A stretch of DNA of 64,000 nucleotides from an uncultured Micavibrio sp. (GTDB lineage Bacteria > Pseudomonadota > Alphaproteobacteria > Micavibrionales > Micavibrionaceae). Made by a program: the position numbers and the translations under genes. Positions 27,273 through 56,855 of this stretch are shown piece after piece. Every line of letters begins with the position of its first letter. Position 1 is the first letter of the stretch. Location: assembly GCA_964478225.1 (NCBI GenBank), contig CAYZHM010000003.1, positions 64,632-128,631 on the forward strand. Direction: 5' to 3'. The notes beneath the pieces were generated by a model, which did not search any database, was not told the DNA's origin, and saw only the letters and a list, made by a program, of their open reading frames with translations.

Positions 27273-27273
<1 letters not shown>
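26857..27273 (-). CDS. atpC: F1 ATP synthase epsilon subunit
   Basis: 138 aa, FELVSPERKL...GEMGV..GH pattern, last gene of atpHAGDC. Confidence 0.93.
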
Positions 27274-28742
<1,469 letters not shown>

Positions 28743-28754
28743 TTAAATTTTAAG

Positions 28755-29648
28755 TTACAGCGCTTCTGCACCGGAAATAATTTCAATCAATTCCTTCGTA
28801 ATATAAGCCTGACGCGCGCGGTTATACGCCAGCGTCAGATCGCTGATCATCTCGCCCGCGTTACGCGTTGCATTGTCCATCGCCGTCATACGTGCCGCCT
28901 GCTCGCCCGCTGATGTCTCCAGCAGTGCGCGGAAGATCTGCACACCGATATTTTTCGGCAAAAGATCATTCAAAATTTGTTCTTCGTCCGGCTCAAAATC
29001 ATAAGGAGAACTTGCCGTAGCTGCAGTTTCTTCCTCCGCTTGAACTTCCGGCAAACGGAATGGAATAACTTGCTGTGCCACCGGCTTTTGAACCAAAACC
29101 GATTGAAATTCGTTATAGATCAATGTGCAAACATCAAACGCATTCGTCTCGAATTTTTCCAGGATATAGCTTGTTACCGTATGCGCATCGGCATACTCAA
29201 CATTGGCTTTACCCGTAAACCCTGTATAGCCCTTCCAGACATGAGTCTTAAGCTCACGCTTCATAAGCTCCGCACCCTTGCGGCCAATGCAAACGATCGA
29301 AACTTCTTTGCCTTCTTTAAGCAAAGCAAACGCCTTCAACCGGGCTGCACGGTAAAGGTTTGAGTTAAACCCACCGCATAAACCGCGGTCAGCCGTCACC
29401 ACGACCAAAAGCTGCTTTTGCTCGCTGCCTGTGCCGGTCAATAACTTGGAACTTCCGGGACCAACCTGGATGTTTGCCGCAACACGCGACAACATGCCCG
29501 CCATGGCCTGCGCATAAGCTTGCGAGGCTTGCGCCTGTTCCTGTGCCCGGCGCAGCTTCGACGCCGCAACCATCTTCATCGCTGAAGTGATTTTCTTGGT
29601 CGATTTGACCGACTTAATCCGGTCTCTATAATCACGTAAGCTTGGCAT
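28755..29648 (-). CDS. atpG: F1 ATP synthase gamma subunit
   Basis: 297 aa. MPSLRDYRDRIKSVKSTKKITSAMKMVAASKLR N-terminus and ITKELIEIISGAEAL C-terminus. Confidence 0.96.
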   Translation of the reverse strand: MPSLRDYRDRIKSVKSTKKITSAMKMVAASKLRRAQEQAQASQAYAQAMAGMLSRVAANIQVGPGSSKLLTGTGSEQKQLLVVVTADRGLCGGFNSNLYRAARLKAFALLKEGKEVSIVCIGRKGAELMKRELKTHVWKGYTGFTGKANVEYADAHTVTSYILEKFETNAFDVCTLIYNEFQSVLVQKPVAQQVIPFRLPEVQAEEETAATASSPYDFEPDEEQILNDLLPKNIGVQIFRALLETSAGEQAARMTAMDNATRNAGEMISDLTLAYNRARQAYITKELIEIISGAEAL

Positions 29649-29651
29649 CTA

Positions 29652-29984
29652 TCATGCGACCTGTAGTTCTGGCGTGTGTAGTTTCGGTTTTTGCGCAGGA
29701 TGTGAAATCTCACAATGCACATTAGCATAGTGCCTGACCATTTCGGCGGCTTCGGCACTCATCGTCTGCAGGAATTCGTCCGTACCTTCCATATCCTTCA
29801 TCAAGAAAGATATTTCCTCAGCATTAAAGCCCATATTTTGGAGGTGAACGATCTGATCGAGTGACTGCACAGCTGCACCTTCGGCTTGCGCTTGAAACAA
29901 AAAACGCAAAATCTGGCAACGCCCGTCAACAACGCGGTTAGCGCGATCAATCATTTCTTTAGTGCTTAATTCTCTGTTCATCAT
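29652..29984 (-). CDS. Hypothetical 110-aa protein embedded between atpA and atpG
   Basis: The ORF fills the atpA-atpG gap: 13 nt after the atpA stop, and its stop lies 3 nt before the atpG ATG. No recognisable motif. Confidence 0.55.
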   Translation of the reverse strand: MMNRELSTKEMIDRANRVVDGRCQILRFLFQAQAEGAAVQSLDQIVHLQNMGFNAEEISFLMKDMEGTDEFLQTMSAEAAEMVRHYANVHCEISHPAQKPKLHTPELQVA

Positions 29985-29997
29985 GATATTCTCTCAG

Positions 29998-31551
29998 TCA
30001 AGCTGCCTCTTTTGTTTTTGTGCTCAAAAAACTCTTGCTGAAAGCATCGATAAATTTATGCATTTCCTTATCAAGATTTTCGTCAATCTTGTGTTCAGTC
30101 CGGATAAATTCAAGGATCTTCTTGCCGTTCGCACGCAAATGCTCAAGGAAGCGGTGCTCATATTCCTCAACATCGCCAAGAGCAACACCATCAAGATATC
30201 CCTTGGTGCCAGCAAAGATAACAACAACCTGTTCTTCCACAGACAATGGTGAGTATTGCGGCTGCTTCAAAAGCAGCGTCAAACGCGCACCACGCGCCAA
30301 CAATTTCTGGGTCGCAGGATCGAGATCCGAGGCAAACTGAGCGAAAGCTTCCATCTCGCGGTACTGTGCAAGCTCAAGCTTGATCGTACCAGCAACTTGC
30401 TTCATCGCTTTGATCTGCGCAGCAGAACCCACGCGGGACACGGACGCCCCGACGTCAATCGCCGGACGAATACCTTTAAAGAACAAACCTGTCTCAAGGA
30501 AGATCTGGCCATCGGTAATCGAAATTACGTTTGTAGGAATGTAAGCGGAAATGTCTCCGGCTTGCGTTTCAATAACAGGAAGCGCCGTCAAAGAACCTGA
30601 CCCTTGGGCTTCGCTCATTTTCGCGGCACGCTCCAGCAAGCGGGAGTGAATGTAGAACACGTCGCCAGGATACGCTTCGCGACCCGGCGGGCGGCGCAGC
30701 AACAAAGACATCTGGCGGTACGCCACAGCTTGCTTGGACAAGTCATCGTAAATCGCCAAAGCGTGAAGACCATTGTCACGGAAATATTCACCCATAGTGC
30801 AGCCTGTGTAAGGCGCCAGGAACTGCATTGGCGCCGGGTCCGATGCTGTTGCAGCCACAACGATGGAATATTCCATCGCGCCTTGCTCTTCAAGTTCCTT
30901 AACAAGCTGAGCAACTGTCGAACGCTTCTGACCGATCGATACATAGATACAGTACAAATGCTTCTTTTCATCAGAGGCACGATTAAGATATTTTTGGTTG
31001 ATGATCGTATCAAGCGCAACAGCCGTCTTACCGGTCTGACGGTCGCCGATAATCAACTCACGCTGACCACGCCCGATTGGAACCAAGGCATCAATCGCCT
31101 TCAAACCAGTCTGCATAGGCTCATGAACGGACTGACGTGGAATAATACCAGGCGCCTTCACTTCAACGCGGCGCATTTCTTTGGCTTTCAGCGGGCCTTT
31201 GCCATCAATCGGATTACCCAAGCCGTCAACAACACGGCCAAGCAGTTCTTTGCCGACTGGCACCTGAACAATTTCCCCTGTACGGCGAACGATATCGCCT
31301 TCCTTAATGTCGCGGTCATTCCCGAAAATAACAACCCCAACATTATCAACTTCAAGGTTCAAGGCCATGCCTTTGATACCTGAAGGAAACTCAACCATCT
31401 CTCCAGCCTGAACATTATCAAGGCCGTAAACGCGTGCCACACCGTCACCAACCGACAACACTTGTCCGATTTCTGCAACGTCTGCCTGCGCACCAAATTC
31501 AGATATTTGTTTCTTCAAAATTTCAGATATTTCTGCAGCTTTGATTTCCAT
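29998..31551 (-). CDS. atpA: F1 ATP synthase alpha subunit
   Basis: 517 aa, P-loop GDRQTGKT, typical alpha N-terminus [16 protein letters not shown]. Confidence 0.98.
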
Positions 31552-31554
31552 TGT

Positions 31555-32142
31555 TTATGCCTCTTTTTTTGTCATGGTGGAATTTTGATTGGAATGCCCG
31601 GCCATTGCAGCCTTCAAGCGTTCCAGCTTGCGGCGTACGGAATGATCAACCATAAACGAGCCAACAGTTACAATAAGCCCGCCTATAATTTCCGGATTAA
31701 TTTTGATTTGAATATTAACGTCTTTGCCAAAAGATTTCTTCAAAGACTCATGTAAAGCCTTCGCTTGCTTCGCATTCAATTCTTGTGCAACCTCAACATC
31801 AGCTTCAATCGTATCATTGCGTCTTGCCGCTTCCTGAAAGAACGCAACCACAATGTCATGAACAGCTTGAGTTCTGTGGTTCTGCACAAGCATGCCCAAG
31901 AAATTATTCGTCAGTTTATGAAACTTGGCTTTCTGAGCCACCGCTTGGATGGCGTTCATTCTTTCGGACTCACCAAAACCCGGTGAATCAAACACGGACC
32001 GAAAATCGCTAAAATTTTCGAACATCTCCGCCAAGTAACCCATGTCTTTTTCGACATCGGTTACGGCTTTTTTGTCTTCTGCTAAATCAAGCAGCGCTGA
32101 GGCGTATCGTCTCGCCAAAAGTGAGGATGATTTCTGTCCCAA
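31555..32142 (-). CDS. atpH: F1 ATP synthase delta (OSCP) subunit
   Basis: LARRYASALLDLA N-terminus and GGLIV.VGS..VDHS near the C-terminus. TTG start in the track; the exact start is uncertain. Confidence 0.88.
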   Translation of the reverse strand: MGQKSSSLLARRYASALLDLAEDKKAVTDVEKDMGYLAEMFENFSDFRSVFDSPGFGESERMNAIQAVAQKAKFHKLTNNFLGMLVQNHRTQAVHDIVVAFFQEAARRNDTIEADVEVAQELNAKQAKALHESLKKSFGKDVNIQIKINPEIIGGLIVTVGSFMVDHSVRRKLERLKAAMAGHSNQNSTMTKKEA

Positions 32143-39808: not shown

Positions 39809-41197
39809 CTAGATATGAATCGGGCGCTTATCAACCGCAAGCGCCGCTTCCTTAACGACCTCGCTCAAAGTCGGGTGTGAGTGGCATGTGCGCGCAATAT
39901 CCTCAGCTGTACCCTGAAACTCCATCACAGCAACAACCTCAGCCATTAACTCACCCACATTGGGCCCAATCATATGAGCGCCGAGCACGCGATCTGTCTT
40001 GGCATCGGCCAAAATTTTCACGAATCCATCGGTCATGCCCATTGCCCGAGCGCGCCCATTCGCCATAAACGGAAACTTGCCGGCATTATATTGGACACCC
40101 TCGTCCTTAAGCTGTTCTTCGGTCTTGCCGACATTCGCAACCTCAGGCCATGTATAAACCACACCAGGGATCATGCCGTAATCAATATGCCCGGTCTGTC
40201 CGGCCAACATCTCCGCCAAAATAACACCTTCATCTTCGGCCTTGTGCGCGAGCATCGGCCCGGCGATCACATCACCTATGGCATAAATCCCCGGAACAGA
40301 GCTTTGGAAATGCGCATCCACCTTCACACGTCCGCGCTCATCCAAAGCCACGCCAGCCTTCTCCAAACCAAGCTTATCAGTATACGCCTTACGCCCAATC
40401 GCCATAAGAACAACATCCGCGCTTAACTTTTCACCAGCGCCTCCGGCCGCGGGCTCGACCATCAAATCAACGCCCTGCCCGTTGGATTTTGCCTTCGTCA
40501 CCTTGCTCGACAGCTTAAATTCCATGCCTTGCTTTTTGAAAATCTTCAAAGCTTCTTTGCGAATTTCACCGTCCATGCCCGGCAAAATATTATCCATAAA
40601 TTCTACAACTGTGACCTTCGCTCCCAAACGGCGATACACCGTTCCAAGCTCAAGGCCAATCACACCACCGCCAATCACCACCATGGTTTTCGGCACTTCG
40701 GAAAGCTCCAATGCGCCCGTCGATGAAACCACGCGCTTCTCATCTATATCAATACCGGGAAGCGAAATGACATCTGATCCTGTCGCAATAACTATGGTCT
40801 TACACGCGTAAGTCTCGGCGCCAACCTTGACCTTACCGGCCGCAACAATCTCTCCATGCCCTTTCAAGTGATCGATTTTGTTCTTTTTGAACAAAAACTC
40901 GATCCCCTTGGTATTGGCCTCAACAACCTCATCTTTAAAGGCCATCATCTTAGCCAAATCAAGTTTGGGGCTCACTTCAATACCGATATGCTCAAAATGC
41001 TTCTCGGCATCCTCAAACTTCTCAGAAGAATGCAACATGGCTTTCGAAGGGATACAGCCAATATTCAGACATGTTCCGCCCAGAGTTTCGCGCTTTTCCA
41101 CGCATGCGACCTTCATCCCAAGCTGCGCACAGCGTATCGCACATACATAGCCCCCAGGCCCTGCCCCAATCACAATAACATCGTAGTTTTCAGCCAT
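39809..41197 (-). CDS. lpdA: Dihydrolipoyl dehydrogenase (E3)
   Basis: 462 aa. FAD motif VIGAGPGGY, redox disulfide GGTCLNIGCIPSK, C-terminal HSHPTLSE. Confidence 0.96.
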   Translation of the reverse strand: MAENYDVIVIGAGPGGYVCAIRCAQLGMKVACVEKRETLGGTCLNIGCIPSKAMLHSSEKFEDAEKHFEHIGIEVSPKLDLAKMMAFKDEVVEANTKGIEFLFKKNKIDHLKGHGEIVAAGKVKVGAETYACKTIVIATGSDVISLPGIDIDEKRVVSSTGALELSEVPKTMVVIGGGVIGLELGTVYRRLGAKVTVVEFMDNILPGMDGEIRKEALKIFKKQGMEFKLSSKVTKAKSNGQGVDLMVEPAAGGAGEKLSADVVLMAIGRKAYTDKLGLEKAGVALDERGRVKVDAHFQSSVPGIYAIGDVIAGPMLAHKAEDEGVILAEMLAGQTGHIDYGMIPGVVYTWPEVANVGKTEEQLKDEGVQYNAGKFPFMANGRARAMGMTDGFVKILADAKTDRVLGAHMIGPNVGELMAEVVAVMEFQGTAEDIARTCHSHPTLSEVVKEAALAVDKRPIHI

Positions 41198-41281
41198 TTT
41201 TTGTGAGTATCCTTCTTACAAATTGCCTTTATTCTTTGTCTTTGTATGTACATCAAGCACAATGAAAAAAATAGATGAATA

Positions 41282-41309
41282 TTGACTTAAAAGAACAATT
41301 TCTTATAGG
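41282..41309 (+). promoter_or_regulatory. Possible sigma70-type promoter for the 341-aa/deaminase cassette
   Basis: TTGACT (41282-41287), 16-nt spacer, TATAGG (41304-41309), in an AT-rich 156-nt intergenic region. Confidence 0.35.
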
Positions 41310-41353
41310 ATCCAAGGCTTATACATAAAAAATAGATAGAACACGGCGGGAAG

Positions 41354-42379
41354 ATGGGTTCAACCAGTTACGTATATCATGCTCAAGCAAGCAAGCTCTT
41401 AGGCGACAAGGTTCACGCTTATGGCGTCCCTCCTATGGTGATTGACGGCAAAGAGTACCCTGCCGAACCAGAATACGGCGCTTGCTTTGCCAATGCTGGC
41501 GATCTCTATCACTACCGCGGGCTCCTCATGCAGATGGATGGCTTTCATCTTATTCCAAACGTGCAGAGAAATTTTGAATATGCAACATTTGGCCTTACCG
41601 CAGAGGATCCAAAAGTTCGCCAGAATTATATGGTTCGCATGCGTTTTGAATATGCCAAACATGCAGGGAAACGTCAGCCACGTGATACATCCATGGGCAT
41701 CAAAAGCAGTGGTAAAGATATCCGCCGTATTGAGATGGAAACTCATATCGGCCGTTCAACGCAGCTGGGTATGGCTCTCCGAAAAATACAGGCGCAATAC
41801 AACGATGTTTTGCCGGAAGAACTATCGTCTTTAAAGAAAAACCATCTAAGAGTAAGCAGTGTAACAGCTGTAAAGCGTGCGGGCTTTAATGCCCTTCATG
41901 TGTTACCAGATTATGATGCCTGCGTAACGCTTTTGTTGTCACAAGATTTCTGTGCAACTTCGACACCGCGCATGTACCAGCCCAACCAAAGATCTAAATT
42001 GGATATAGTCGGACAGCGTTTTGAAGGAGAAAGTGAAGCGGTGAGCCTGTATTCTCCAATCAAAGACCTAACTCCAGGAGAAGTCGATGAAATCATGCAG
42101 GCCTCATTGACAAAAATCCAAAATTACCTGGAAAACTCGACTGTCATAAGGCCTATCGAATGCAACCTCAGCAAGGTAGAACAGGCAGATGACTTTGTGA
42201 ACAACAGTACATACATTCCCGGTCAACATGAGGTCTTACACCCCGGCGACTATGCCGGGAGAGCAAATGGAAGACTGACCGCAGCTTTCCGCGAACTATT
42301 TAGAGGGCTACCATCCGCAGATAAAGTCCATGACATATCTGAAAGATTTGTAGCGCGCCCCCAACCTACCGCAGCTTAG
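41354..42379 (+). CDS. Hypothetical 341-aa protein
   Basis: Long ORF with balanced composition, no signal peptide and no recognisable motif. Its stop lies 1 nt before the deaminase-like start. Confidence 0.55.
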   Translation: MGSTSYVYHAQASKLLGDKVHAYGVPPMVIDGKEYPAEPEYGACFANAGDLYHYRGLLMQMDGFHLIPNVQRNFEYATFGLTAEDPKVRQNYMVRMRFEYAKHAGKRQPRDTSMGIKSSGKDIRRIEMETHIGRSTQLGMALRKIQAQYNDVLPEELSSLKKNHLRVSSVTAVKRAGFNALHVLPDYDACVTLLLSQDFCATSTPRMYQPNQRSKLDIVGQRFEGESEAVSLYSPIKDLTPGEVDEIMQASLTKIQNYLENSTVIRPIECNLSKVEQADDFVNNSTYIPGQHEVLHPGDYAGRANGRLTAAFRELFRGLPSADKVHDISERFVARPQPTAA

Positions 42380-42380
42380 A

Positions 42381-43214
42381 ATGCACGCAAATACGATCAT
42401 CAGCCATATGCAAACCGCCGTTGAAGCGGCGCAAACGAGCGAGCACCCAGACAGCAAAGTTGGCTCCTGCATTGTGGGAGACGGCTGGCAATTCTCCAGC
42501 CCCAACTTCTGGCCACAGCCCATACAAGATAAAATTGGGGCCGGTATCAGGGTCGGCAATTCATCCGGTACCATCCATGCGGAAACTGCCTGCTTGCTCC
42601 TCACCCCAAACGCGACATATGGCGCATCAATGTTCTCAACCGATCCGTCTTGCCCGAACTGCGCCAAGAACATGGCCGAGGCCGGCATCAAACATCTCTA
42701 TATCGACCACAAAGGTTTCGAAAAATATTTTCACCAAAAGCGTATGGCAGATTTTGAAACCCTCACTCTTGAAATTTGTACCGCTGCCGGGATAGGTGTA
42801 ACGCGCGTCTTTCGCAAAGAAGGGCGACTGGAAGAAATCATCGCTCCCGGAAATCCCGACCATGTTGAAGATTTTAGCCCGCATTTCGCTTCATGCGTCG
42901 CAAATGGCAAAGAACTCAAAGTCTATGGTGGGGCCAGCACAGGGCTTATCGCCCCTGACCCATATGAAGACAGCAAATATAATCTCCTAATGCAGCCACT
43001 CAATCGCCTTTTAATGATACTCGCCAAAGACGGTCTAAAACCGGCCCCGGTTTCCTTTATCTCCAGCCGCGTGCCTACATCGCGCGAGCTCGTCAACTTC
43101 ATCGGGGCGGGATATGACACAATGCAGATCCTGGACAAAACAGAGGGCCGCGATCCAGAAAGCCTGGTCGCATTCAATACCCTTCAGGAAAAAAATATTT
43201 TAAACGTCAAGTAG
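42381..43214 (+). CDS. dCMP/cytidine deaminase-fold protein with about 130-aa C-terminal extension
   Basis: Zinc motif HAETACLL, about 24 aa, then [20 protein letters not shown] (compare the dCMP deaminase pattern HAE...PCxxCAK.I..GI..V). N-terminal KVGSCIV. The C-terminal half is unassigned. Confidence 0.65.
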
Positions 43215-44393
43215 GAGACGCTGAGGATCTTCAAGCGCCTGCTTGATGCGCACCAGCGACGTCACAGCCTCTCGTCCGTCAACAATGCGGTGATCGTAAG
43301 ACAACGCCAGATACATCATCGGCCGCGCTTTGATTTCACCATTCGGCATTACCATCGGACGCTGCACGATATTATGCATGCCCAAAATCGCAGACTGCGG
43401 CGCATTCAAAATCGGCGTCGACATCATCGAACCGAAAATCCCACCATTGGTAATGGTAAACGTTCCGCCGGTCATCTCATCAATCGAGATCTTGCCGTCA
43501 CGCGCACGCGTTCCTAGGTCAACAATCTTGGCTTCAATTTCCGCCATCGACATCTGGTCCGCATCACGAAGAACCGGAACCACAAGACCTTGCGGCGCAG
43601 AAACCGCCACGCCGATGTCATAGTAGTTTTTGTAAATGATATCCGTTCCATCAATTTCGCCATTCACAGCCGGAAACTCTTTAAGCGCCTGAATAGCCGC
43701 CTTCACGAAGAACGACATAAAGCCCAACTTGATACCATGCTTCTTCTCAAAGCTGTCTTTGTACTGCGCGCGCAGATCCATAACCGCAGTCATGTCGACT
43801 TCATTGAACGTGGTAAGCATCGCTGCTGTGTTCTGAGCTTCTTTCAAACGCTTGGCGATCACCTGACGCAGCTTGGTCATTTTCACACGCTCTTCACGTG
43901 GCCCGGTCTCACGCGGAGCAGAAACCTTTGCCGGCGCAGGAGCAGCAGCCCCACCGCCACTCAAATAATTCTGAACATCTTCTTTATTAATGCGTCCACT
44001 GCTCGCAACCTGCGAAGGCTGCACATTATTGTCATCCATCATCTTGCGTGCAGACGGCGATGTTTTTGCAGACTCGATTGAAACGACAGGCGCGGCCTTA
44101 GGCACTTCTTTTTTAGCCTCAACAGGCTTCGGCGCATCATTCGCAACCGCACCCACATTTAGCTCACCCAAAATGGCGCCAACTTCAACAGTCTCGCCCT
44201 CACCAACAGTAATCTTCGCAATGACGCCATCCGACGGCGCGTTCACTTCCAAGGTGACCTTGTCCGTTTCAAGCTCTACAATCGGCTCATCAGCTTTGAC
44301 AGCCTCGCCTTCTTTTTTCAGCCATTGGGCAACAGTTGCCTCGGAAACAGATTCACCCAGTGTTGGAACCACGATTTGCGTCATATTGATCAC
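43200..44393 (-). CDS. sucB: Dihydrolipoamide succinyltransferase (E2 of 2-oxoglutarate dehydrogenase)
   Basis: Lipoyl domain [19 protein letters not shown] linker, catalytic SYDHRIVDG. Confidence 0.96.
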
Positions 44394-44464
44394 CGTTTTT
44401 AATTATTTATATTTTTCAGCAACTATTTACGCATATATCACCGGGAATTCAAGAGTCGAAACAA

Positions 44465-45382
44465 TTAAAAATGCGACCACCCGGTATGTTGGAACTGCAG
44501 CTTTCCGCCATTTTTATCATAAACATTCACACCAGATTCTTTCGTAAATCTTCCGATAATCTGCGCCCCTGCGATTGTATGACCCTGCGGCACCGCCATC
44601 AGCAATCGATAATCATCGCCCCCAGTCAAAAGCTGCTCTACTGAAACAGCTTGCGACTCTATAAGCACCCTCGCCTGATCAGAAAACTGAATATCTTCTA
44701 CCTTTATATGCGCCCCGATGCCGGAGCTTTTACAGATATGAGTAAGATCAGCAATCAATCCATCCGAAACATCAATCGCCGCATGAACAGGGTCAGATAA
44801 AAACTCCACCTCTGGCTTGTAATATTTTTCGACAAAAAATTCATCATGGTCTGTTTTTAAACGGCCGCGCAAAACCTCCAGCCCTATCCACGCATCACCA
44901 ACGGGACCACTGAGGACAATATCATCTCCAACCTTCGCCCCGCTGCGCTTCCATGCCTTCCCCTTTTCAACCAGCCCCATCGCAGTAATCGAAATCGACA
45001 AAGGACCATCGATCGAGGTTGTGTCCCCGCCACTGCAAAAAATACCAAAGGCCTTTTGATCGTTGATCAATGCTGACGTAAACTCCTTGAACCACTCTTC
45101 AGAGGGTTTTGAAGGCAATGCAAGATTAAGCTGATAACAAAACGGCTTTGCCCCCATGGCTGCCAAATCCGAAACGTTGACCCGCAGCGCTTTGCACGCA
45201 ATATCGCCAGGCAAAGCATCGGCAAAAAAATGCGTCCCGGCATTCAGCGTATCCGAGGTTACAACCAACTCATGCCCTTCTGGAATTTCCAAAACCGCCG
45301 CATCATTATCAAAAGAAACTTTTTCTTCGCTCAGCAACTGAAAATATTTGGCGATGATGTCGAACTCATTCATGACTTCCAC
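44465..45382 (-). CDS. thiL: Thiamine-monophosphate kinase
   Basis: 305 aa, AIR-synthase-like fold motifs (DDAAVL, SDTLNAGTHF, GGDTT). 13-nt overlap with thiD. Confidence 0.88.
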   Translation of the reverse strand: MEVMNEFDIIAKYFQLLSEEKVSFDNDAAVLEIPEGHELVVTSDTLNAGTHFFADALPGDIACKALRVNVSDLAAMGAKPFCYQLNLALPSKPSEEWFKEFTSALINDQKAFGIFCSGGDTTSIDGPLSISITAMGLVEKGKAWKRSGAKVGDDIVLSGPVGDAWIGLEVLRGRLKTDHDEFFVEKYYKPEVEFLSDPVHAAIDVSDGLIADLTHICKSSGIGAHIKVEDIQFSDQARVLIESQAVSVEQLLTGGDDYRLLMAVPQGHTIAGAQIIGRFTKESGVNVYDKNGGKLQFQHTGWSHF

Positions 45383-46104
45383 CCATGATGAACCGGCCCA
45401 TGCCCTAGCCCAACACCCAATTCATCCGCATGTTGCAAAGCGCCAGTTAAGTAAGTTTTTGCGCTTTGAATTGCCGATTGCAAATCCTCGCCCATCGCCA
45501 GATAAGCGGCAGTCGCCGACGACAACGTGCATCCCGTTCCATGGGTATTTTTGGTATCCACACGCGGCGCAGAAAATTCATAGCGCTGCCCACCCACAAC
45601 CAAAATATCAACCGCCTGATCACCATCATCATGCCCGCCCTTTAAAAGCACAGGAACATCAACATCACCCAAAATCTTCGCCTCTGCTTTATTGGGTGTA
45701 ACGAGTGAAGCCAACGGCACCAACTCACTTTTCAAAACAGCAATCGCATCATCAGAAATTAATGTGTCCCCACTCGTTGCCACCATCACCGGATCAAGAA
45801 CAATGTGCGCAGGCTTATACCGGCGCAAACATTCAGCAATCGCAAGAATAATCTCCGCATTCGCTGTCATCCCTATCTTGACTGCATCAACGCTTATGTC
45901 CTCAAAGACCATCTCAATTTGTTTGCGCACAAAATCCGCGGATACCGCCTCAAATCCGCTTACTCCTTTGGTATTTTGTGCCGTCAGCGCTGTAATCGCC
46001 GCCATACCGTAACACCCGAGCGCCGCAAAGGTTTTAAGATCGGCCTGAATTCCCGCCCCACCCGACGGATCAGACCCTGCAATAGAGAGAACATTTGGGA
46101 TCAT
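45370..46104 (-). CDS. thiD: Hydroxymethylpyrimidine/phosphomethylpyrimidine kinase
   Basis: VLSIAGSDPSGGAGIQADLKTF N-terminus and GTGCTLSSA near the C-terminus. Confidence 0.92.
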   Translation of the reverse strand: MIPNVLSIAGSDPSGGAGIQADLKTFAALGCYGMAAITALTAQNTKGVSGFEAVSADFVRKQIEMVFEDISVDAVKIGMTANAEIILAIAECLRRYKPAHIVLDPVMVATSGDTLISDDAIAVLKSELVPLASLVTPNKAEAKILGDVDVPVLLKGGHDDGDQAVDILVVGGQRYEFSAPRVDTKNTHGTGCTLSSATAAYLAMGEDLQSAIQSAKTYLTGALQHADELGVGLGHGPVHHGWKS

Positions 46105-46120
46105 GACCAGACTTTAGCAA

Positions 46121-46819
46121 TTAATGGACGGCAAGGCCATGTTCTTCAACAGACGCCGCAGCCATATAGCCTAAAAGCTGGGTGGAGGATGCAAGAAAAG
46201 CACCTTTCTTCTTCATATATTTTGCAGCCTCAACGGTTCCCGGCGGATATATAAAATTGCCAGTTCCAATGGCATCAACAAGAACACAGACATTGAATTT
46301 CTTCTTCAATGCACTTTCAACGCTGCTACCAACGCAGTGACCGGCATTGACCCCGGAAACAATCAGGGTTTTAATCCCACGCCCCTTCAGAAGGTTCAAC
46401 AAATCCGTATCACGAAAAACATCATTCCTGTATTTCGCCATTGTAATATCATCCTGATCGGGGCAAACTTGATAAAATCCGCCACGATGCAGAGATGGAT
46501 CGCTCAAGGAATAATCATCATCGCCACACTGGGCAAAATAAGCAAAAATATGAAGTATGCGGTTGCTTTTAAAAGCCGGAATGATCGTTTGGGCAAGAGA
46601 GGCAGCAACATTCTCTGTCTCCTCATTCCCTTGAGCACCGAGACGATCTCCAGCATAGGAAGGATCACAAAACTGACGCTGAACATCAATAACGAGATGG
46701 GCGCATTCCGCATAGTTCGGCTGGCTGGCTGCAAAAAAGTCATGAAATGAGCTAGACGCAGCTTTGTGCCCCCAAAATCTCATATAAGGATAAACCCAAT
46801 CTTTGAGTATATGCGTCAT
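46121..46819 (-). CDS. Isochorismatase-family cysteine hydrolase embedded in the thi operon
   Basis: All three isochorismatase-family catalytic positions are present: LVIDVQRQF (Asp), AKYRNDVF (Lys), LIVSGVNAGHCVGSS (Cys). The ATG at 46819 overlaps the thiE stop as ATGA. Confidence 0.75.
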   Translation of the reverse strand: MTHILKDWVYPYMRFWGHKAASSSFHDFFAASQPNYAECAHLVIDVQRQFCDPSYAGDRLGAQGNEETENVAASLAQTIIPAFKSNRILHIFAYFAQCGDDDYSLSDPSLHRGGFYQVCPDQDDITMAKYRNDVFRDTDLLNLLKGRGIKTLIVSGVNAGHCVGSSVESALKKKFNVCVLVDAIGTGNFIYPPGTVEAAKYMKKKGAFLASSTQLLGYMAAASVEEHGLAVH

Positions 46820-47448
46820 GACTGTGGGTATAAGCCACAACTGCGCAATATGTCAATAAATTTTCTTGTTGCTGCTTCAGGATCCACGGCCTCGCTTATA
46901 CTCCGCATCATCGCCACTCCATCCGCACCAGCCTCAATGACTGCCGCTGCGTTCTCTGGCGTAATCCCGCCGATCCCCACAACCGGAACCGGCGACAATT
47001 TTACAAGCGCCGCAAACTTTTCTGCGCCAAGCACAGGTTTCCCTTTGTCTGTTTTGGTTTCATAGAAAGGCCCCGTTCCGATATAATCAACCACTGCCGG
47101 ATCAACGGCCTTAATCTGCTCTTCAGTAAACGCCGTCACACCGATAATTTTATCCGGCCCTAAAATCGCCCGCGCCTTGGCCGCATCCATATCCCCCTGC
47201 CCCAGATGAACCCCATCCGCATCAATGCCCTTCGCAATATAGACATGATCGTTGATAAGAAGAGGAACAGACAATTGCGCCGCTTTCATTCGCCGGGCAT
47301 TTTCGAGGGCATCATTAGATTTGTCGCGCAACTGCACCATGGTCACACCACCACGCACCGCCGCCAATGTGACATCAACCGGGTCACGGCCAGCGCATAA
47401 AGAAGGATCACAAACGAAATAAGGAGAAAGATTTAAATTTTTGAGCAT
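46816..47448 (-). CDS. thiE: Thiamine-phosphate synthase
   Basis: VTMVQLRDK, GADGVHLGQGD, IGGITPENA motifs. ATG at 47448 preferred over the longer track ORF. Confidence 0.9.
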   Translation of the reverse strand: MLKNLNLSPYFVCDPSLCAGRDPVDVTLAAVRGGVTMVQLRDKSNDALENARRMKAAQLSVPLLINDHVYIAKGIDADGVHLGQGDMDAAKARAILGPDKIIGVTAFTEEQIKAVDPAVVDYIGTGPFYETKTDKGKPVLGAEKFAALVKLSPVPVVGIGGITPENAAAVIEAGADGVAMMRSISEAVDPEAATRKFIDILRSCGLYPQS

Positions 47449-47521
47449 TTCAAAACGTTTAACATGAAACACAACCAAAAAAAACTTGCACATCTGTTTA
47501 TGATTATGTTAAATTATTTCA

Positions 47522-48268
47522 ATGAATTTGAAGACCCTTACAAAGCCCTTTAAGAGAGCGATTGCAACACTCGGAATAGGAAATCCTCATACGGGATACG
47601 ACAATTCCGAAGCAGCCTTAATGATGGCAGGTGTAAAACCAGTTGGTATTTTTGGCGACACGCAAATAACAGCCCAACTACAAATCGCAATACATAAAGG
47701 AAACATCATTGTTGCTGGCGAGTTTCCTTTCAAACAAATATATCGAGTTTACTGCAAGCATGATGAATTAGAAAAAGCAAAACAGGCAATTAATTCTTTA
47801 AAAGGCGGGGAACGATCCGAGATATATAATTTTACAATTGCTAATGTTTATGAAGGGTGGTCTCCCGGCCCCGAGGAAAAAGACCTCGAAGAGGGAAAAC
47901 TAACTTTTATCGACTTTGAAATGGAATCTACAATTTTTGTTTTGGCTCAAAAAGACAAAATAAAAGATGCGCACGAATTAATTATTTTATACTACAATGA
48001 CATCTTCGAAAGTCCCTATATATCAGCCGAAAGACGCCGACAATTGCAATCTACGGAATGGGAAGAGGGCAGCGCTTTGGTAGGAAAAATTTTAGGCTTC
48101 ACAGACAATGACATTGCCTGGTTCAACGGCGAGAAATACCAAAACCCCGTAATAAAAGGGTTGATGACATATACAAACGACTGGCGGCAAACAATTCGTC
48201 AAGAAATCATGCTCGAAGACGCCGAAGACCGTTTTTCAGGCTTAAAATCACCCGAAAATAATCTCTAA
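47522..48268 (+). CDS. Hypothetical protein
   Basis: 248-aa ORF, AT-richer than its neighbours, no recognisable motif. Convergent 4-nt overlap with sucA. Confidence 0.5.
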   Translation: MNLKTLTKPFKRAIATLGIGNPHTGYDNSEAALMMAGVKPVGIFGDTQITAQLQIAIHKGNIIVAGEFPFKQIYRVYCKHDELEKAKQAINSLKGGERSEIYNFTIANVYEGWSPGPEEKDLEEGKLTFIDFEMESTIFVLAQKDKIKDAHELIILYYNDIFESPYISAERRRQLQSTEWEEGSALVGKILGFTDNDIAWFNGEKYQNPVIKGLMTYTNDWRQTIRQEIMLEDAEDRFSGLKSPENNL

Positions 48269-51165
48269 ACACTCAACGCCTCGTCAACCAACCTTGCCTG
48301 TTGCAGGTTATGACGTTTGAGCATTCCAGTTGCAGGAGCCGCCGCTGCCGGACGTCCGACATACTTAGGTCTTCCGGCTTTATGGTTGGCCATCCCAAGC
48401 GATTCCTCTATACGGCGGTCAACAAAATGCCACGCCCCCTGGTTTTCAGGCTCTTCCTGGCACCAGACAACATCAGCATTGGCAAACGGTTTAAGCTCAT
48501 CGGCCAATTCTTCCGCAGGGAATGGATAAAGCTGCTCCATGCGCAAGATCATCACATCCTTAATGCCGCGCTCACGCCGCGCTTCAAGCAGATCGTAGTA
48601 GACTTTACCGCTGCACAGAACCACGCGCTTCATTTTGTCTGGCGCAACCAATTGGTCTTTATCATCATCCCACAAGAAACGGTGGAACGAGCTTCCATCT
48701 GTGAATTCATGAATTTGTGAAACCGCAAGCTTATGACGAAGCAAAGATTTCGGCGTCATCAAAATCAAAGGCTTTCTGAAATCCCGGTTCATCTGACGGC
48801 GCAAAATGTGGAAATAGTTCGCAGGCGTCGTACAGTTTGCAACCTGCCAATTATCTTCCGCACAAGATTGCAAGAAACGCTCAGGTCGCGCTGAAGAGTG
48901 CTCAGGCCCCTGCCCTTCAAAGCCATGCGGCAACAACATCACAAGACCGGACATCCGCAGCCATTTGCTCTCGCCCGAAGAAATAAACTGGTCAATCATG
49001 ACCTGCGCACCGTTCACGAAATCTCCGAACTGTGCTTCCCAAAGCACAAGTGTCTTCGGATCAGCCAGCGTATAACCGTACTCAACGCCCAAGACCGCCA
49101 TTTCAGAAAGCGGCGAGTCATGCACTTCAAATTTCGGCTGCCCCTCATAAACATGCTTCAGGGCAACATATTTATTCTCGTTTTCCTGATCGTACCAGAT
49201 TGCATGACGCTGCGAGAACGTCCCGCGTCCGACATCCTGTCCCGATAAGCGCACAGCAAAATTATCATTAAGCAAAGCCCCGAACGCCAGTAATTCCGCC
49301 GTCGCCCAGTCAAACCCTTGCTCGCCTGCAAACATCGCCTTCTTACCGTCCAGAACACGTTGCAGTTTTTTGTTGATTGTGAAGCCTTCCGGCACCGTAG
49401 TCAGCACTCTGCCTAGTTCTTGAAGTTCCGCATTTGGAATGGCCGTATCGCCACGCCGTGGCCCCTCAGACGCAACACTCAACCCGCTCCATGCGCCACC
49501 AAGAAAATCCGCATCATTCGGCTTATAGGTTTCTGTCGCCTTGAAAGCACCCTCAAGCTCATTCGTGAAATCGTCCAAAATGGCTTTGGCTTCAGCTTCT
49601 GTAATTGTTTTCTCGGCAATCAATTGGCGTTCATACTGCGAACGCGTTGTCTCTTGCGTTGCAATTTTTTTGTACATTAGTGGCTGCGTGAACGCAGGCT
49701 CATCGCCTTCATTATGGCCGTAGCGACGGTAACAGAACATATCGATAACGACATCCTTACGGAATTTCTGACGGTATTCCGTTGCAATCCGCGCCACATG
49801 CACCACCGCCTCAGGATCATCGCCATTCACATGGAAGATCGGCGCCGCAACCATTTTCGCGACATCCGTTGAATACGGACCGGAACGGCTGAACTTCGGC
49901 ATCGTCGTAAAACCGATCTGGTTATTAATCACGATATGGATCGTTCCACCAACGCGGTAACCGGGAAGGTCTGAAATCATCAACGTTTCCGCCGTAATCC
50001 CCTGCCCTGCAAACGCCGCATCTCCGTGCAATAGCAACGGCATGACTTTCACATACTCTTCGTCTTTACGCTGACGCTGCTTTGCACGCACCTTCCCAAT
50101 TACAACCGGGTTAACGAACTCTAGGTGCGACGGATTGGCCGTCAAAGAAAGGTGGACGCTCTTGCCATCAAAATCACGATCACTTGATGTCCCAAGGTGA
50201 TATTTCACATCGCCCGAACCAAGCACATCATCAGGGGTCGAAGACTGCCCCTGAAATTCTGCAAAAATCGCTGTAAAGGGCTTGCCCATAACGTTCGCCA
50301 AAACATTAAGACGACCGCGGTGGGCCATACCGATAACCATCTCTTCCAATCCAAGCTGACTGCCGCGCTTCATAATCTGTTCAATCGCAGGAATAAGCGC
50401 CTCGCCACCATCAACGCCAAACCGCTTGGTTCCCGTGTGCTTTTTATGGAGAAACTGCTCAAACACTTCGCCGGCAGTCAAACGTTTCAAAATCGCTTTC
50501 TTGCCCTCAGCTGTAAACTCAGTCTTGTTATGAGGCTCCTCAATCCGCTCTTGAATCCACTTCTTTTCAGCAGGATCAGAAATATGCATATACTCCACAC
50601 CAATCTTGCCACAATAAGTCGCGCGCAAAGTTGTTACGATAGTATCCAAAGTCGCCGTCTGCATACCGAGAACACCGCCAATATAAATCATGCGGTTATA
50701 ATCAGACTCCGAGAAACCGTAATAAGAAGGGTCAAGCTCCGGATGCTGTTCAATCTCGCGCATCCCAAGCGGATCAAGATCGGCCATCAAATGCCCGCGC
50801 GCACGGTAGGCACGAATAAGCATCAAAGCAGAAATTGAATCCTTTGCAGCAATTTGCAATTCATCACGGCTAAGGTTGTCACTCATCCGTCTTGCAGGCT
50901 CATTCGCCGCTTTCGGCAAATTCTGCACCGGCGCCACATGGGCCACACCAAACGCACGCCCGGACTTACGATTTTCTTCCGGCGTCCAACTCGCGCCCGC
51001 AAGATCTTGAAGAAGCTCGATCTCACTATCCTTCAAACCATCAAAAAACGATTTCCAGCTCTCATCAACGTTGCTGGCATTCTTGAGATATTGCACATAC
51101 AAATGCGCGACATATTCGGCGTTGGTGGCATTGATAAAAGTAAGATTGGGTGCGGTATTGGTCAT
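48265..51165 (-). CDS. sucA: 2-oxoglutarate dehydrogenase E1 component
   Basis: 966 aa. The N-terminus (NAEYVAHLYVQYLKN), the TPP-binding region (GDAAFAGQG) and the overall length are typical of SucA. Confidence 0.97.
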   Translation of the reverse strand: MTNTAPNLTFINATNAEYVAHLYVQYLKNASNVDESWKSFFDGLKDSEIELLQDLAGASWTPEENRKSGRAFGVAHVAPVQNLPKAANEPARRMSDNLSRDELQIAAKDSISALMLIRAYRARGHLMADLDPLGMREIEQHPELDPSYYGFSESDYNRMIYIGGVLGMQTATLDTIVTTLRATYCGKIGVEYMHISDPAEKKWIQERIEEPHNKTEFTAEGKKAILKRLTAGEVFEQFLHKKHTGTKRFGVDGGEALIPAIEQIMKRGSQLGLEEMVIGMAHRGRLNVLANVMGKPFTAIFAEFQGQSSTPDDVLGSGDVKYHLGTSSDRDFDGKSVHLSLTANPSHLEFVNPVVIGKVRAKQRQRKDEEYVKVMPLLLHGDAAFAGQGITAETLMISDLPGYRVGGTIHIVINNQIGFTTMPKFSRSGPYSTDVAKMVAAPIFHVNGDDPEAVVHVARIATEYRQKFRKDVVIDMFCYRRYGHNEGDEPAFTQPLMYKKIATQETTRSQYERQLIAEKTITEAEAKAILDDFTNELEGAFKATETYKPNDADFLGGAWSGLSVASEGPRRGDTAIPNAELQELGRVLTTVPEGFTINKKLQRVLDGKKAMFAGEQGFDWATAELLAFGALLNDNFAVRLSGQDVGRGTFSQRHAIWYDQENENKYVALKHVYEGQPKFEVHDSPLSEMAVLGVEYGYTLADPKTLVLWEAQFGDFVNGAQVMIDQFISSGESKWLRMSGLVMLLPHGFEGQGPEHSSARPERFLQSCAEDNWQVANCTTPANYFHILRRQMNRDFRKPLILMTPKSLLRHKLAVSQIHEFTDGSSFHRFLWDDDKDQLVAPDKMKRVVLCSGKVYYDLLEARRERGIKDVMILRMEQLYPFPAEELADELKPFANADVVWCQEEPENQGAWHFVDRRIEESLGMANHKAGRPKYVGRPAAAAPATGMLKRHNLQQARLVDEALSV

Positions 51166-51257
51166 GGATTTCTCCGTTATAAAAAAGCTAGGGACACATT
51201 AATTTAATGTGTCCCTGTTTGCAATCCTTCTCAGGAACTAAACCCCAAGCGACTTAA

Positions 51258-51689
51258 TCACACCATCTCAAAAACTGGTGTCTCAAAAACTCGATGCATA
51301 TCTACCTGAGGACCTATAACATCTTGCATTGAATACAATAAATAATCTTTGCCAAATATTTCGTTTTTTCCGCGCGTTTGAACGGCTTGTGGCAAATATG
51401 GATATGTTTGAAAAACAACCTGATCAACATAAAATTCCAAAATCTTTGGAAGGCATGCTCTATCCCCTGATTTCCATTCAGGAACATTAGAAACATCCAT
51501 GGACTTCAAAGCTTCATACCCCTCCTCGATCGCATAAAAAAGATCTTCAGGCAATTCAGACTTTGCGCTCCAAGGATCCCCTGGCCAGTAATCATAAAGC
51601 TGGTATTTTTGAATAATTCCTTTCAAAAACTCATAATCAACAGCCAAACTCGCCAAGGCTGCATCATATTCTTTGCGGGTAATCTCCAT
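51258..51689 (-). CDS. Hypothetical 143-aa protein between sucD and sucA
   Basis: AT-rich ORF, acidic and rich in aromatic residues (W/Y/F), no recognisable motif. GGAG about 8 nt upstream of the ATG. Confidence 0.5.
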   Translation of the reverse strand: MEITRKEYDAALASLAVDYEFLKGIIQKYQLYDYWPGDPWSAKSELPEDLFYAIEEGYEALKSMDVSNVPEWKSGDRACLPKILEFYVDQVVFQTYPYLPQAVQTRGKNEIFGKDYLLYSMQDVIGPQVDMHRVFETPVFEMV

Positions 51690-51716
51690 ACAATTTACTC
51701 CTTTTACTATTGATAC

Positions 51717-52592: not shown

Positions 52593-52617
52593 TTATTATT
52601 CTCCTAAATTCTCTCTA

Positions 52618-53832: not shown

Positions 53833-54022
53833 AAGAGGTCGACTCCGCTCTACAGGTTAATTTCGCCTTTGTTTTAGCATCTTAGCGGCCATTTGCAAGC
53901 GCGAAAACCGCCAATTTTTGAATTGTTAGCCTTTTTTGTGCTAAAATGAAGTCAACAATAAAAAAACCTTGAAAAATGTAAATAAATCAAGGGTAAACGG
54001 TAAAAAATAGAGGTGCGGGTGT

Positions 54023-56778: not shown

Positions 56779-56855
56779 CCCCTTCCCTCTCGACATAACA
56801 GCTTACCGCGCGTACAATCGCGGGGGAAAGATTCATTCACAAGGGGAAATACATC

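What the first reader, a model, noticed from the sequence alone, without database searches (positions are those of the whole stretch)
29652..29984. Unknown 110-aa gene inserted between atpA and atpG in the F1 operon
atpH-atpA-atpG-atpD-atpC is normally contiguous. Here a 333-nt ORF fills the atpA-atpG spacer precisely, starting 13 nt after the atpA stop and stopping 3 nt before the atpG ATG (TGA-TAG-ATG). It must therefore be co-transcribed, and probably co-translated, with the F1 subunits. The product (MMNRELSTKEMIDRANRVVDGR...) looks helical and soluble, with no motif I recognise. Alphaproteobacteria have a small F1 inhibitor, the zeta subunit (DUF1476), of similar size but encoded elsewhere. 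I see no sequence resemblance to it. An operon-embedded regulator or assembly factor of F1 is a plausible hypothesis, but no more than that.
Basis: partly seen in the sequence, partly recalled or inferred. Interest (0 to 1): 0.6.

Follow-up and report, generated by a model that had tools for sequence, protein, structure and literature searches.

The report
Orphan passenger gene inside ATP-synthase operon
A real but very fast-evolving 110-residue gene sits between the alpha and gamma genes of the ATP-synthase operon of an uncultured Micavibrio-like predatory bacterium, and because relatives hold other genes or none at that junction, it looks like a lineage-specific passenger using a variable slot, not a conserved ATP-synthase part.

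Summary
The ORF exists as described, on the minus strand at 29652-29984. It starts 13 nt after the atpA stop and ends TGA-TAG-ATG at atpG.

It is a real protein-coding gene:
- Its codon usage is native.
- A spacer this open arises by chance with p=0.004.
- A positional ortholog lies directly upstream of atpG in the closest available genome, with 33% amino-acid identity against 78-89% for the F1 genes.
- Between the two, third codon positions are randomised (0.30 identity) while positions 1 and 2 keep 0.52 and 0.61. This shows selection on the protein.

Searches of 15 billion proteins, Pfam, NCBIfam, PHROGs, PADLOC, PDB and BFVD give no family or fold. It is unrelated to the zeta inhibitor, which this genome encodes elsewhere.

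The lineage is Micavibrionaceae. In 110 surveyed genomes of this family and its order, the atpA-atpG junction exceeds 200 nt in 32, and the atpG-atpD junction does so in 20 of 30. The atpH-atpA junction does so in only 2 of 70. In other alphaproteobacteria the two atpG flanks do so in only 4-7% of genomes. The inserts are same-strand, promoter-less ORFs that fill the spacer, they belong to unrelated families, and they differ within genera.

Best reading: a passenger gene in a variable slot beside atpG, expressed by co-transcription and translational coupling. An F1-regulator role is not supported, but it is not excluded.

The parts
29652..29984 (-). orfX: 110-aa orphan gene. Acidic (pI 5.3) and soluble. 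Predicted helices at residues 8-34, 41-50, 55-63, 68-74 and 77-94, with a disordered tail at 96-110.
   Evidence: codon usage; AF2; ortholog and codon-position test; shuffle test
29985..29997 (-). 13-nt atpA-orfX spacer (ctgagagaatatc) holding a weak SD-like GAGAG. The predicted duplex with the anti-SD is -2.9 kcal/mol.
29646..29654 (-). Stop-start junction TGA TAG ATG: the orfX stop, an in-frame second stop, then the atpG start. The atpG SD lies inside the orfX 3' end and is weak (-3.7 kcal/mol).
29998..31551 (-). atpA (F1 alpha), 517 aa, upstream neighbour
28755..29648 (-). atpG (F1 gamma), 297 aa, downstream neighbour. Its two flanks are the insertion hot spots of the family.
27273..28724 (-). 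atpD (F1 beta). In this genome the atpG-atpD junction is short (30 nt), that is, an empty slot.
31555..32142 (-). atpH (F1 delta), first gene of the operon. Its junction with atpA is 3 nt.

Best explanation
orfX is a genuine, lineage-restricted, fast-evolving gene for a small acidic helical protein. It occupies a variable slot at the atpA|atpG junction of the F1 operon of a Micavibrionaceae bacterium.

How it is expressed (inferred): it has no promoter or terminator of its own, so it is transcribed with atpHAGDC. Ribosomes that terminate at atpA, 13 nt upstream, restart on its weakly signalled ATG. Ribosomes that terminate at its TGA restart at the atpG ATG 3 nt further on. The ORF therefore also relays ribosomes to gamma, and it must stay open.

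What is shown: the protein itself is under purifying selection.

What is inferred: the product is a passenger, not a part of the ATP synthase. It is probably a protein-binding module made alongside the F1 operon. In the cultured relative Micavibrio aeruginosavorus, ATP synthase genes are up-regulated in the attachment (growth) phase. The partner and role of the product are unknown.
For: Real gene:
- Native codon usage.
- Spacer openness p=0.004.
- A positional ortholog, P0003, lies 6 nt upstream of atpG on a syntenic contig of the closest genome found.
- Nucleotide identity by codon position is 0.52/0.61/0.30. dN is 0.62 with dS saturated.

Co-expression and coupling:
- No promoter-like or terminator-like site on its strand.
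- 13-nt and 3-nt junctions.
- Weak SD for orfX and atpG (-2.9 and -3.7 kcal/mol), against about -6 for atpA, atpD and atpC.

Variable slot:
- atpA|atpG exceeds 200 nt in 32 of 110 surveyed genomes. Among the 107 that belong to the family, the site is occupied in 21 of 40 genera and its content differs within genera.
- The occupants are a 17-member B/C superfamily, PDDEXK_3 nucleases that occur at both atpG flanks, the orfX trio, and about 18 singletons.
- Spacers of 200-560 nt are 94% open on the sense strand, against 65% antisense and 45% when shuffled.
- Control junction atpH|atpA: 2 of 70 exceed 200 nt.
- Other alphaproteobacteria: 3 of 68 and 5 of 68.

Not a known F1 partner:
- No Pfam, NCBIfam, PDB or BFVD match.
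- hhalign against zeta gives 0.5% probability.
- Zeta is present elsewhere in the genome.

It is a lead, not independent evidence.
Against: - Position in an operon is classic guilt by association. The B/C superfamily sits almost only at this junction in 17 genomes of 9 genera, so some occupants may be functionally tied to F1.
- orfX has been kept for as long as atpG took to diverge to 78% identity, and its product is constrained.
- The ortholog's contig starts 2 nt before its ATG, so atpA upstream of it is not seen.
- Nothing positive identifies what the passenger does.
Confidence: 0.6

Rival explanations
1. orfX is a lineage-specific accessory protein of F1: an inhibitor of wasteful ATP hydrolysis, or an assembly helper for alpha or gamma. 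On this view it sits in the operon so that it is made in step with gamma.
For: - It is operon-embedded and probably translated at a gamma-like level.
- It is small, soluble and helical. A long conserved N-terminal helix (residues 8-34) is its best conserved segment, and it has a disordered tail. Known inhibitors share this general build (IF1, zeta; from general knowledge).
- A predator with a non-growing attack phase could profit from extra control of ATP hydrolysis (life cycle in PMC3189940).
- Another junction family (B/C) is almost exclusive to this site.
Against: - It is found in only 2-3 genomes.
- Its dN is 4-6 times that of atpD and atpG, although the F1 surfaces are highly conserved.
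- Sister genera have an empty slot or unrelated occupants, including nucleases.
- It has no sequence or fold similarity to zeta, epsilon, IF1 or the Atp11/Atp12 families.
- A canonical zeta is present.
Confidence: 0.17
2. The ORF is only a translational bridge. What is selected is that ribosomes stay on the mRNA between atpA and atpG, which avoids polarity and sets the gamma dose. The peptide itself is functionless.
For: - Stop-start TGA-TAG-ATG, and weak SD sequences for orfX and atpG.
- Across the family, whatever fills the spacer stays open on the sense strand nearly end to end, even where no family can be recognised.
- Divergence is very fast.
Against: A frame kept open only for ribosome passage should diverge equally at all three codon positions. 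Here positions 1 and 2 keep 52% and 61% identity while position 3 is at the random level of 30%. The protein alignment is significant (E 3e-16) although blastn finds no DNA similarity. Hydrophobic periodicity and helix boundaries are conserved.
Confidence: 0.1
3. orfX is cargo or a remnant of a selfish or mobile cassette (homing-type element, toxin-antitoxin or defence gene) that landed in a highly expressed operon.
For: PDDEXK_3 (GxxExxY) nuclease genes occupy the same junction in 4 genomes and the atpG|atpD junction in 2. One genome has a copy at each. Occupants differ between species of the same genus.
Against: - orfX has no PADLOC or PHROG family.
- It is single-copy in its genome.
- It has no flanking repeats or hairpins. 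The spacers of 13 and 3 nt leave no room for recombination sites.
- Its base composition and codon usage are native.
- It has no partner gene.
Confidence: 0.08
4. It is a chance ORF in a long spacer, not a gene.
For: It is an orphan in databases of 15 billion proteins apart from one or two weak relatives.
Against: Shuffle test p=0.004. Codon usage like real genes. A conserved positional ortholog with a coding substitution pattern.
Confidence: 0.02

Closest known systems
Zeta subunit of alphaproteobacterial F1 (ATPaseInh_sub_z, DUF1476, Pfam PF07345; Paracoccus denitrificans)
   Same: Similar size (about 105 aa), soluble, acidic and all-helical, and from an alphaproteobacterium.
   Different: - No sequence relationship (no Pfam hit; hhalign probability 0.5%).
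- No fold match in PDB.
- Zeta is conserved across the family (49 of 61 genomes). It is present in this genome at another locus, C1:517500-517805.
- orfX is restricted to 2-3 genomes.
Variable passenger genes at F1-operon junctions, reported by earlier notes of this scan for Saccharibacteria and other CPR lineages and for another Micavibrio-like genome. From memory and unverified: the unidentified reading frame between the gamma and beta genes of the Rhodopseudomonas blastica atp operon (Tybulewicz, Falk & Walker 1984).
   Same: Same-strand, promoter-less, tightly packed small ORFs wedged beside atpG. They are species-specific and fast-changing, and relatives hold different genes or none.
   Different: orfX belongs to a sequence family of its own. 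I found no published description of the phenomenon. The earlier notes are AI leads. The 1984 example could not be checked in the library.
Termination-reinitiation (translationally coupled) bridge ORFs in polycistronic mRNAs
   Same: Stop and next start lie within 3 nt, the downstream gene has a weak SD, and the ORF fills the spacer end to end.
   Different: The orfX amino-acid sequence is itself under purifying selection, so it is more than a spacer kept open.
Ankyrin-type repeats (only hits outside the family: P0002, P0004, eukaryote-like repeat proteins)
   Same: Residues 5-46 resemble one repeat unit (AMDxAAxNGHxEIVKFL type). Whole-library E is about 1e-6, summed over 5 repeats.
   Different: There is no Pfam Ank hit. 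It would be a single unit only. AF2 predicts one continuous helix across residues 8-34. The E-values are inflated by the repeats. I treat it as a chance or convergent helical pattern.

Membership tests
Zeta subunit / DUF1476 (PF07345) | Match to the family profile | tested here: not met
   No hit at E<=10. Profile-profile comparison against zeta of this lineage gives probability 0.5%.
Zeta subunit / DUF1476 (PF07345) | Fold like solved zeta structures or F1-zeta complexes | tested here: not met
   Foldseek against PDB has a best E of 2.8 and lists no ATP-synthase chain. The model is only moderately confident (pLDDT 68).
Zeta subunit / DUF1476 (PF07345) | Inhibits F1-ATPase by inserting a terminal segment at the alphaDP/betaDP/gamma interface | not testable with these tools
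   Needs biochemistry or a multimer prediction. The structure tool takes single chains only.
Other known F1 partners: epsilon C-terminal domain, IF1 (IATP), Atp11/Atp12 chaperones, AtpI/AtpZ | Sequence or fold similarity. For AtpI/AtpZ, membrane helices. | tested here: not met
   No Pfam or NCBIfam hits. The PDB sequence profile finds nothing relevant. No Foldseek match. No hydrophobic segment, GRAVY -0.33.
Passenger gene in a variable F1-junction slot | Same strand, no own promoter or terminator, tightly packed between subunit genes | tested here: met
Passenger gene in a variable F1-junction slot | Relatives hold different genes or none at the same junction | tested here: met
   74 of 110 surveyed genomes are empty (<=100 nt) and 32 exceed 200 nt. 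The occupants fall into at least 4 unrelated families plus singletons, and content differs within genera.
Passenger gene in a variable F1-junction slot | Narrow distribution and fast evolution relative to the flanking genes | tested here: met
   2-3 genomes only. 33% identity against 78-89%, and dN 0.62 against 0.10-0.14.
Passenger gene in a variable F1-junction slot | Product does not act on the ATP synthase | not testable with these tools
   Inferred only from distribution and rate. Needs pull-down or an activity assay.
Pure translational bridge ORF | Stop-start coupling with a weakly signalled downstream gene | tested here: met
   TGA TAG ATG. atpG SD is -3.7 kcal/mol, against about -6 for atpA, atpD and atpC.
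Pure translational bridge ORF | No constraint on the encoded amino-acid sequence | tested here: not met
   Codon-position identities are 0.52/0.61/0.30. The protein alignment has E 3e-16 with no DNA-level match.
Mobile or defence cassette (PDDEXK_3 type, TA, PADLOC systems) | Family match, multicopy, or flanking repeats | tested here: not met
   no family; single copy; no meaningful repeats
UBA-like three-helix module (lead from memory: L..L..MGF...EI..L motif at residues 43-74) | Profile match to UBA, CUE or TS-N type families | tested here: not met
   Pfam scan of the sub-region from three family members at E<=10 lists no such family.

The most novel reading that the evidence does not exclude
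The two flanks of atpG in Micavibrionaceae, and by earlier notes in epibiotic CPR bacteria too, act as a polarity-protected landing pad or nursery for genes. Any DNA that lands there must stay open and coupled so that gamma is still translated. It is therefore expressed from the first day at F1-operon levels. On this reading orfX is a young gene that was born or domesticated in that slot. The native codon usage, the lack of any homolog among 15 billion proteins, the very fast divergence and the disordered tail all fit. A subset of such occupants (orfX, or the B/C superfamily that is almost exclusive to this junction) may then have been recruited as lineage-specific modulators of F1.
Probability: 0.2. 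Interest if true: 0.75.

Novelty: new member of a known kind. Interest (0 to 1): 0.42.

Why it matters
Taken alone, orfX is one more lineage-specific orphan. The context is the more useful result.

- In a family of predatory bacteria, the most conserved energy operon has two hot spots, one on each side of the gamma gene. They hold fast-changing, same-strand, spacer-filling ORFs in 29% and 67% of genomes.
- The delta-alpha junction of the same operon does so in 3% of genomes. In other alphaproteobacteria the two gamma flanks do so in only 4-7%.
- This warns against reading operon position as function. It also gives a countable system for studying how new genes enter and survive inside essential operons.
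- It picks out a few occupants as the only reasonable candidates for new F1 accessory proteins: orfX, and the B/C superfamily tied to this junction in 9 genera.

Tried and rejected
- **Known families.** Pfam, NCBIfam, PHROGs and PADLOC give no family. The weak hits (NAPRTase_N 0.037, ParB-like 0.068) are far below their cut-offs.
- **Homolog searches.** The word-indexed search of 5.8 billion proteins, with the single sequence and with the profile, returned only the window's protein and P0003. Pattern scans of genome contigs and metagenome contigs found nothing. Searches of 60 relatives with the protein and of all 237 family genomes with the profile found only the window's own copy, plus chance-level hits at other loci.
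- **Ankyrin-repeat hits (P0002, P0004).** Rejected as repeat-inflated. There is no Ank Pfam hit, and the model has a continuous helix there.
- **Fold searches.** PDB and BFVD give nothing at E<0.1. The PDB sequence profile gives nothing.
- **Zeta replacement.** Rejected, because zeta is present in this genome and is unrelated to orfX.
- **Diverged member of family B.** Rejected, hhalign probability 0.1%.
- **UBA-like motif.** Not confirmed.
- **Structure of family B.** Confident model with a generic ferredoxin-like fold and no significant match, so no link to F1.
- **RNA element, mobile-element repeats, paralogs.** None found.
- **Remnants of orfX in other spacers.** None, apart from the weak L110 link.
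- **Literature.** Searches for ORFs inside alphaproteobacterial F1 operons found nothing. Borghese 1998 is not held.
- **dN/dS.** dS is saturated and the YN00 method failed, so only codon-position identities and NG86 dN are reported.

Full report
**Observation.** The ORF exists exactly where stated, but on the minus strand: 29652..29984, 110 aa. atpA (29998..31551) ends 13 nt upstream, and atpG (28755..29648) starts 3 nt downstream. The junction reads GCA TGA TAG ATG. The 349-nt spacer is 97% open in the sense frame, against a mean of 47% in 1000 shuffles (p=0.004).

**Is it a gene?**
- I built a codon model from 672 long ORFs of the same genome. With it, orfX scores 0.157. Pieces of 110 codons from real genes score 0.18+-0.065, and shadow ORFs score -0.07+-0.12, of which 3% reach orfX. 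GC by codon position is 0.59/0.33/0.48, which is native-like.
- The exhaustive HMMER search of 1.84 billion cluster representatives found one full-length relative, P0003: 107 aa, 33% identity, pairwise E 3e-16.
- P0003 is an NCBI 'hypothetical protein, partial [Alphaproteobacteria bacterium]'. It is encoded at the very start of an 8.8-kb MAG contig, 6 nt upstream of atpG. The downstream synteny matches the window: atpG, atpD, atpC, LOG, class-IV aminotransferase, GATase.
- That genome is the closest one I could find. Identities to the window are atpG 78%, atpD 89%, atpC 72% and LOG 78%.
- In the codon alignment of the two orfX copies, nucleotide identity is 0.52, 0.61 and 0.30 at positions 1, 2 and 3. 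Third positions are therefore randomised, while first and second positions are held. NG86 dN is 0.62, against 0.14 (atpG), 0.10 (atpD) and 0.31 (aminotransferase). dS is saturated throughout. blastn sees no DNA similarity across the ORF.
- The conclusion is that the protein sequence is under purifying selection and evolves 4-6 times faster than the F1 genes. A caveat is that the contig of P0003 begins 2 nt before its ATG, so atpA upstream of it is not seen.

**What is it like?** Pfam, NCBIfam, PHROGs and PADLOC give no family. AlphaFold2 on the two-sequence alignment gives a moderately confident all-alpha model (pLDDT 68, pTM 0.58). It has helices at 8-34, 41-50, 55-63, 68-74 and 77-94 and a disordered tail at 96-110. 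Foldseek against PDB and BFVD, and a profile search of PDB sequences, find nothing. The protein is acidic and soluble. Two eukaryote-like ankyrin-repeat proteins hit residues 5-46. I regard this as repeat-inflated, because there is no Ank Pfam hit and the model shows one continuous helix there. The central motif L..L..MGF...EI..L recalled UBA-like modules, but a Pfam scan of that sub-region did not support this.

- orfX is unrelated to zeta/DUF1476. There is no Pfam hit, and hhalign against a zeta alignment from this lineage gives probability 0.5%.
- The genome carries a canonical zeta elsewhere (C1:517500-517805, E 2e-36), as do 49 of 61 relatives. orfX therefore does not replace a missing inhibitor.
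- There is no promoter-like or terminator-like site on the minus strand in or next to orfX.
- The predicted SD strengths are -5.8 (atpA), -2.9 (orfX), -3.7 (atpG), -6.0 (atpD) and -5.6 (atpC) kcal/mol.
- Co-transcription, and a coupling chain atpA -> orfX -> atpG, is therefore the natural reading. This is inferred, not shown.

**Lineage.** Loci fetched by atpG similarity carry record titles. Their contig lengths identify G013:C37 as 'Micavibrio sp. UWMA-0310', G078:C1 as 'DT-Micavibrionaceae-1' and G105:C22 as 'Pseudobdellovibrionaceae'. G125:C1 has 2,481,983 bp, the published size of Micavibrio aeruginosavorus ARL-13 (PMC3189940). The window thus comes from an uncultured member of the Micavibrionaceae, which are obligate epibiotic predators. 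In ARL-13, ATP synthase genes are up-regulated in the attachment (growth) phase (PMC3189940).

**The junction in relatives.** I measured the atpA-stop to atpG-start distance in 110 genomes, 107 of them from the family.
- 74 are 100 nt or less, 4 are 101-200 nt, and 32 (29%) exceed 200 nt.
- Almost every long spacer is 88-99% filled by one same-strand ORF, packed within about -13 to +30 nt of its neighbours.
- For spacers of 200-560 nt, the mean open fraction is 0.94 on the sense strand, 0.65 antisense and 0.45 after shuffling. 27 of the 32 long spacers have p<=0.01.
- The occupants fall into these groups:
  - a B/C superfamily of 17 proteins;
  - PD-(D/E)XK nucleases of the PDDEXK_3 / GxxExxY type in 4 genomes (E 8.6e-41);
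  - orfX, P0003 and a weak third member, L110p113 (13.7 bits, E 1.6e-4 within the 46-ORF set, grouped by jackhmmer);
  - about 18 singletons of 60-250 aa.
- Content differs within genera. Genus g12 has 13 empty sites, two PDDEXK_3 and two different unique ORFs. Genus g14 has B, C+B+B, an empty site and the possible orfX relative. In all, 21 of 40 sampled genera have at least one occupied site.
- The nearest species representative, G002 (atpG 72%), has a 6-nt spacer.

**Other junctions and outgroups.**
- The atpG-atpD junction exceeds 200 nt in 20 of 30 loci, again with same-strand ORFs. PDDEXK_3 recurs there, and one genome has a copy on each side of atpG.
- In the window itself, atpG-atpD is 30 nt.
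- The atpH-atpA junction exceeds 200 nt in only 2 of 70 loci.
- In 68 loci from other alphaproteobacterial groups, the figures are 3 of 68 (A|G) and 5 of 68 (G|D).
- So the hot spots are the two flanks of gamma, and they are a trait of this lineage.

**Does any occupant point to F1?** The B profile finds 17 of 237 family genomes in 9 genera. Almost every hit lies directly upstream of atpG, and one clear exception lies elsewhere. That family is stably tied to the junction. Its AlphaFold2 model is confident (pLDDT 82) and has a generic ferredoxin-like alpha+beta fold with no significant PDB match. orfX is not related to it (hhalign 0.1%).

**Mobile-element signs at orfX.** There are none. It is single-copy in its genome, has no meaningful flanking repeats and no Rfam match, and the 13-nt and 3-nt spacers leave no room for recombination sites. 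No degraded remnants occur in other spacers.

**Interpretation.**
- *Shown:* orfX is a real gene with a constrained product. It is restricted to 2-3 genomes and diverges fast. It sits in a junction that in this family is frequently and variably occupied.
- *Inferred:* it is transcribed with the F1 operon and translated by coupling, and it in turn delivers ribosomes to atpG, which would explain why junction occupants stay open end to end. Its product is a passenger and not an ATP-synthase part.
- I give about 0.6 to this passenger-in-a-slot reading and about 0.17 to a lineage-specific F1 modulator. I give about 0.1 to a pure bridge ORF, which the codon-position pattern contradicts. I give about 0.08 to a selfish or defence cassette, and about 0.02 to chance.

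**Comparison with what is known.** I found no paper describing ORFs embedded in alphaproteobacterial F1 operons in the searchable library. From memory only, the Rhodopseudomonas blastica atp operon (Tybulewicz et al. 1984) has an unidentified reading frame between gamma and beta. Earlier notes of this scan describe the same variable-slot pattern in Saccharibacteria and other CPR genomes, and in another Micavibrio-like genome. They also note orphan insertions in the suc operon of this same genome. These notes are leads. The survey reported here tests the claim independently for Micavibrionaceae. CPR epibionts and Micavibrio share an epibiotic, host-dependent lifestyle. That may be a coincidence, but it is worth noting.

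**Verdict.** The operon-embedded gene is real. The F1-regulator reading is not supported, though it is not excluded. As a single gene it is a new member of a known kind (a lineage-specific orphan passenger gene). The family-wide, gamma-flanking slot pattern is the more interesting result.

Noticed in passing
Relatives' atpA|atpG junctions, e.g. L092 (G258), L093 (G236), L114 (G151), L028 (G019), L022 (G013), L085 (G129): A 17-member 'B/C' superfamily of 116-241 aa proteins with no Pfam family occurs in 17 of 237 family genomes (9 genera). It lies almost always directly upstream of atpG, sometimes in two or three tandem copies. The AF2 model is confident (pLDDT 82) with a ferredoxin-like alpha+beta fold and no significant PDB match. 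It is the best candidate in this family for a junction gene with a real link to F1.
   Followed up: partly
L018, L043, L049, L079 (atpA|atpG); L006 and L018 (atpG|atpD): PD-(D/E)XK nuclease genes of the PDDEXK_3 / GxxExxY type (Pfam E 8.6e-41) sit at both flanks of atpG in several genomes. One genome (L018) has a copy on each side. This suggests a mobile or selfish element that targets these junctions.
   Followed up: partly
atpG|atpD junction in L004-L032: This junction exceeds 200 nt in 20 of 30 loci (up to 1321 nt). It carries same-strand ORFs, including three small families (271/313/261 aa, 169/141/125 aa, 93/97 aa). In the window itself it is only 30 nt.
   Followed up: partly
L033:1241-1984 and L033:3985-4479: The genome that holds the orfX ortholog also has a 247-aa lipoprotein-like ORF (signal peptide and Cys) between atpG and atpD, and a 164-aa Pro/Glu-rich ORF after atpC. 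Neither has a Pfam family, and the window has neither.
   Followed up: no
L017, L047, L057, L060, L061, L112 (atpA|atpG occupants): Six unrelated occupants all end 13 nt inside atpG, with similar C-termini (…CPV, …CPA, …CQA, …CRV, …CLV). This fits a shared out-of-frame stop in the conserved atpG 5' end, which would serve for overlap coupling.
   Followed up: no
L060 (G221) atpA|atpG, 56-aa ORF: The ORF contains a tandem peptide repeat (RSIDSSAQALQNDKGK / RSIESSAQALQNDKGN). It may be a recent duplication inside a young spacer ORF.
   Followed up: no
L103 (G092, 256 nt), L006 (138 nt), L066 (106 nt), L076 (180 nt): These long spacers have no ATG/GTG/TTG-initiated ORF of 50 or more codons. Even so, L103 is 93% stop-free on the sense strand. 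It may use a non-canonical start or be a decaying occupant.
   Followed up: no
window 39809-57851 (earlier notes e1-3016883 and e1-3016877): Earlier notes report orphan ORFs inserted in the mdh-suc-lpdA cluster and at other operon boundaries of this same genome. Gene insertion into conserved operons may therefore be genome-wide in this lineage, not special to atp.
   Followed up: no
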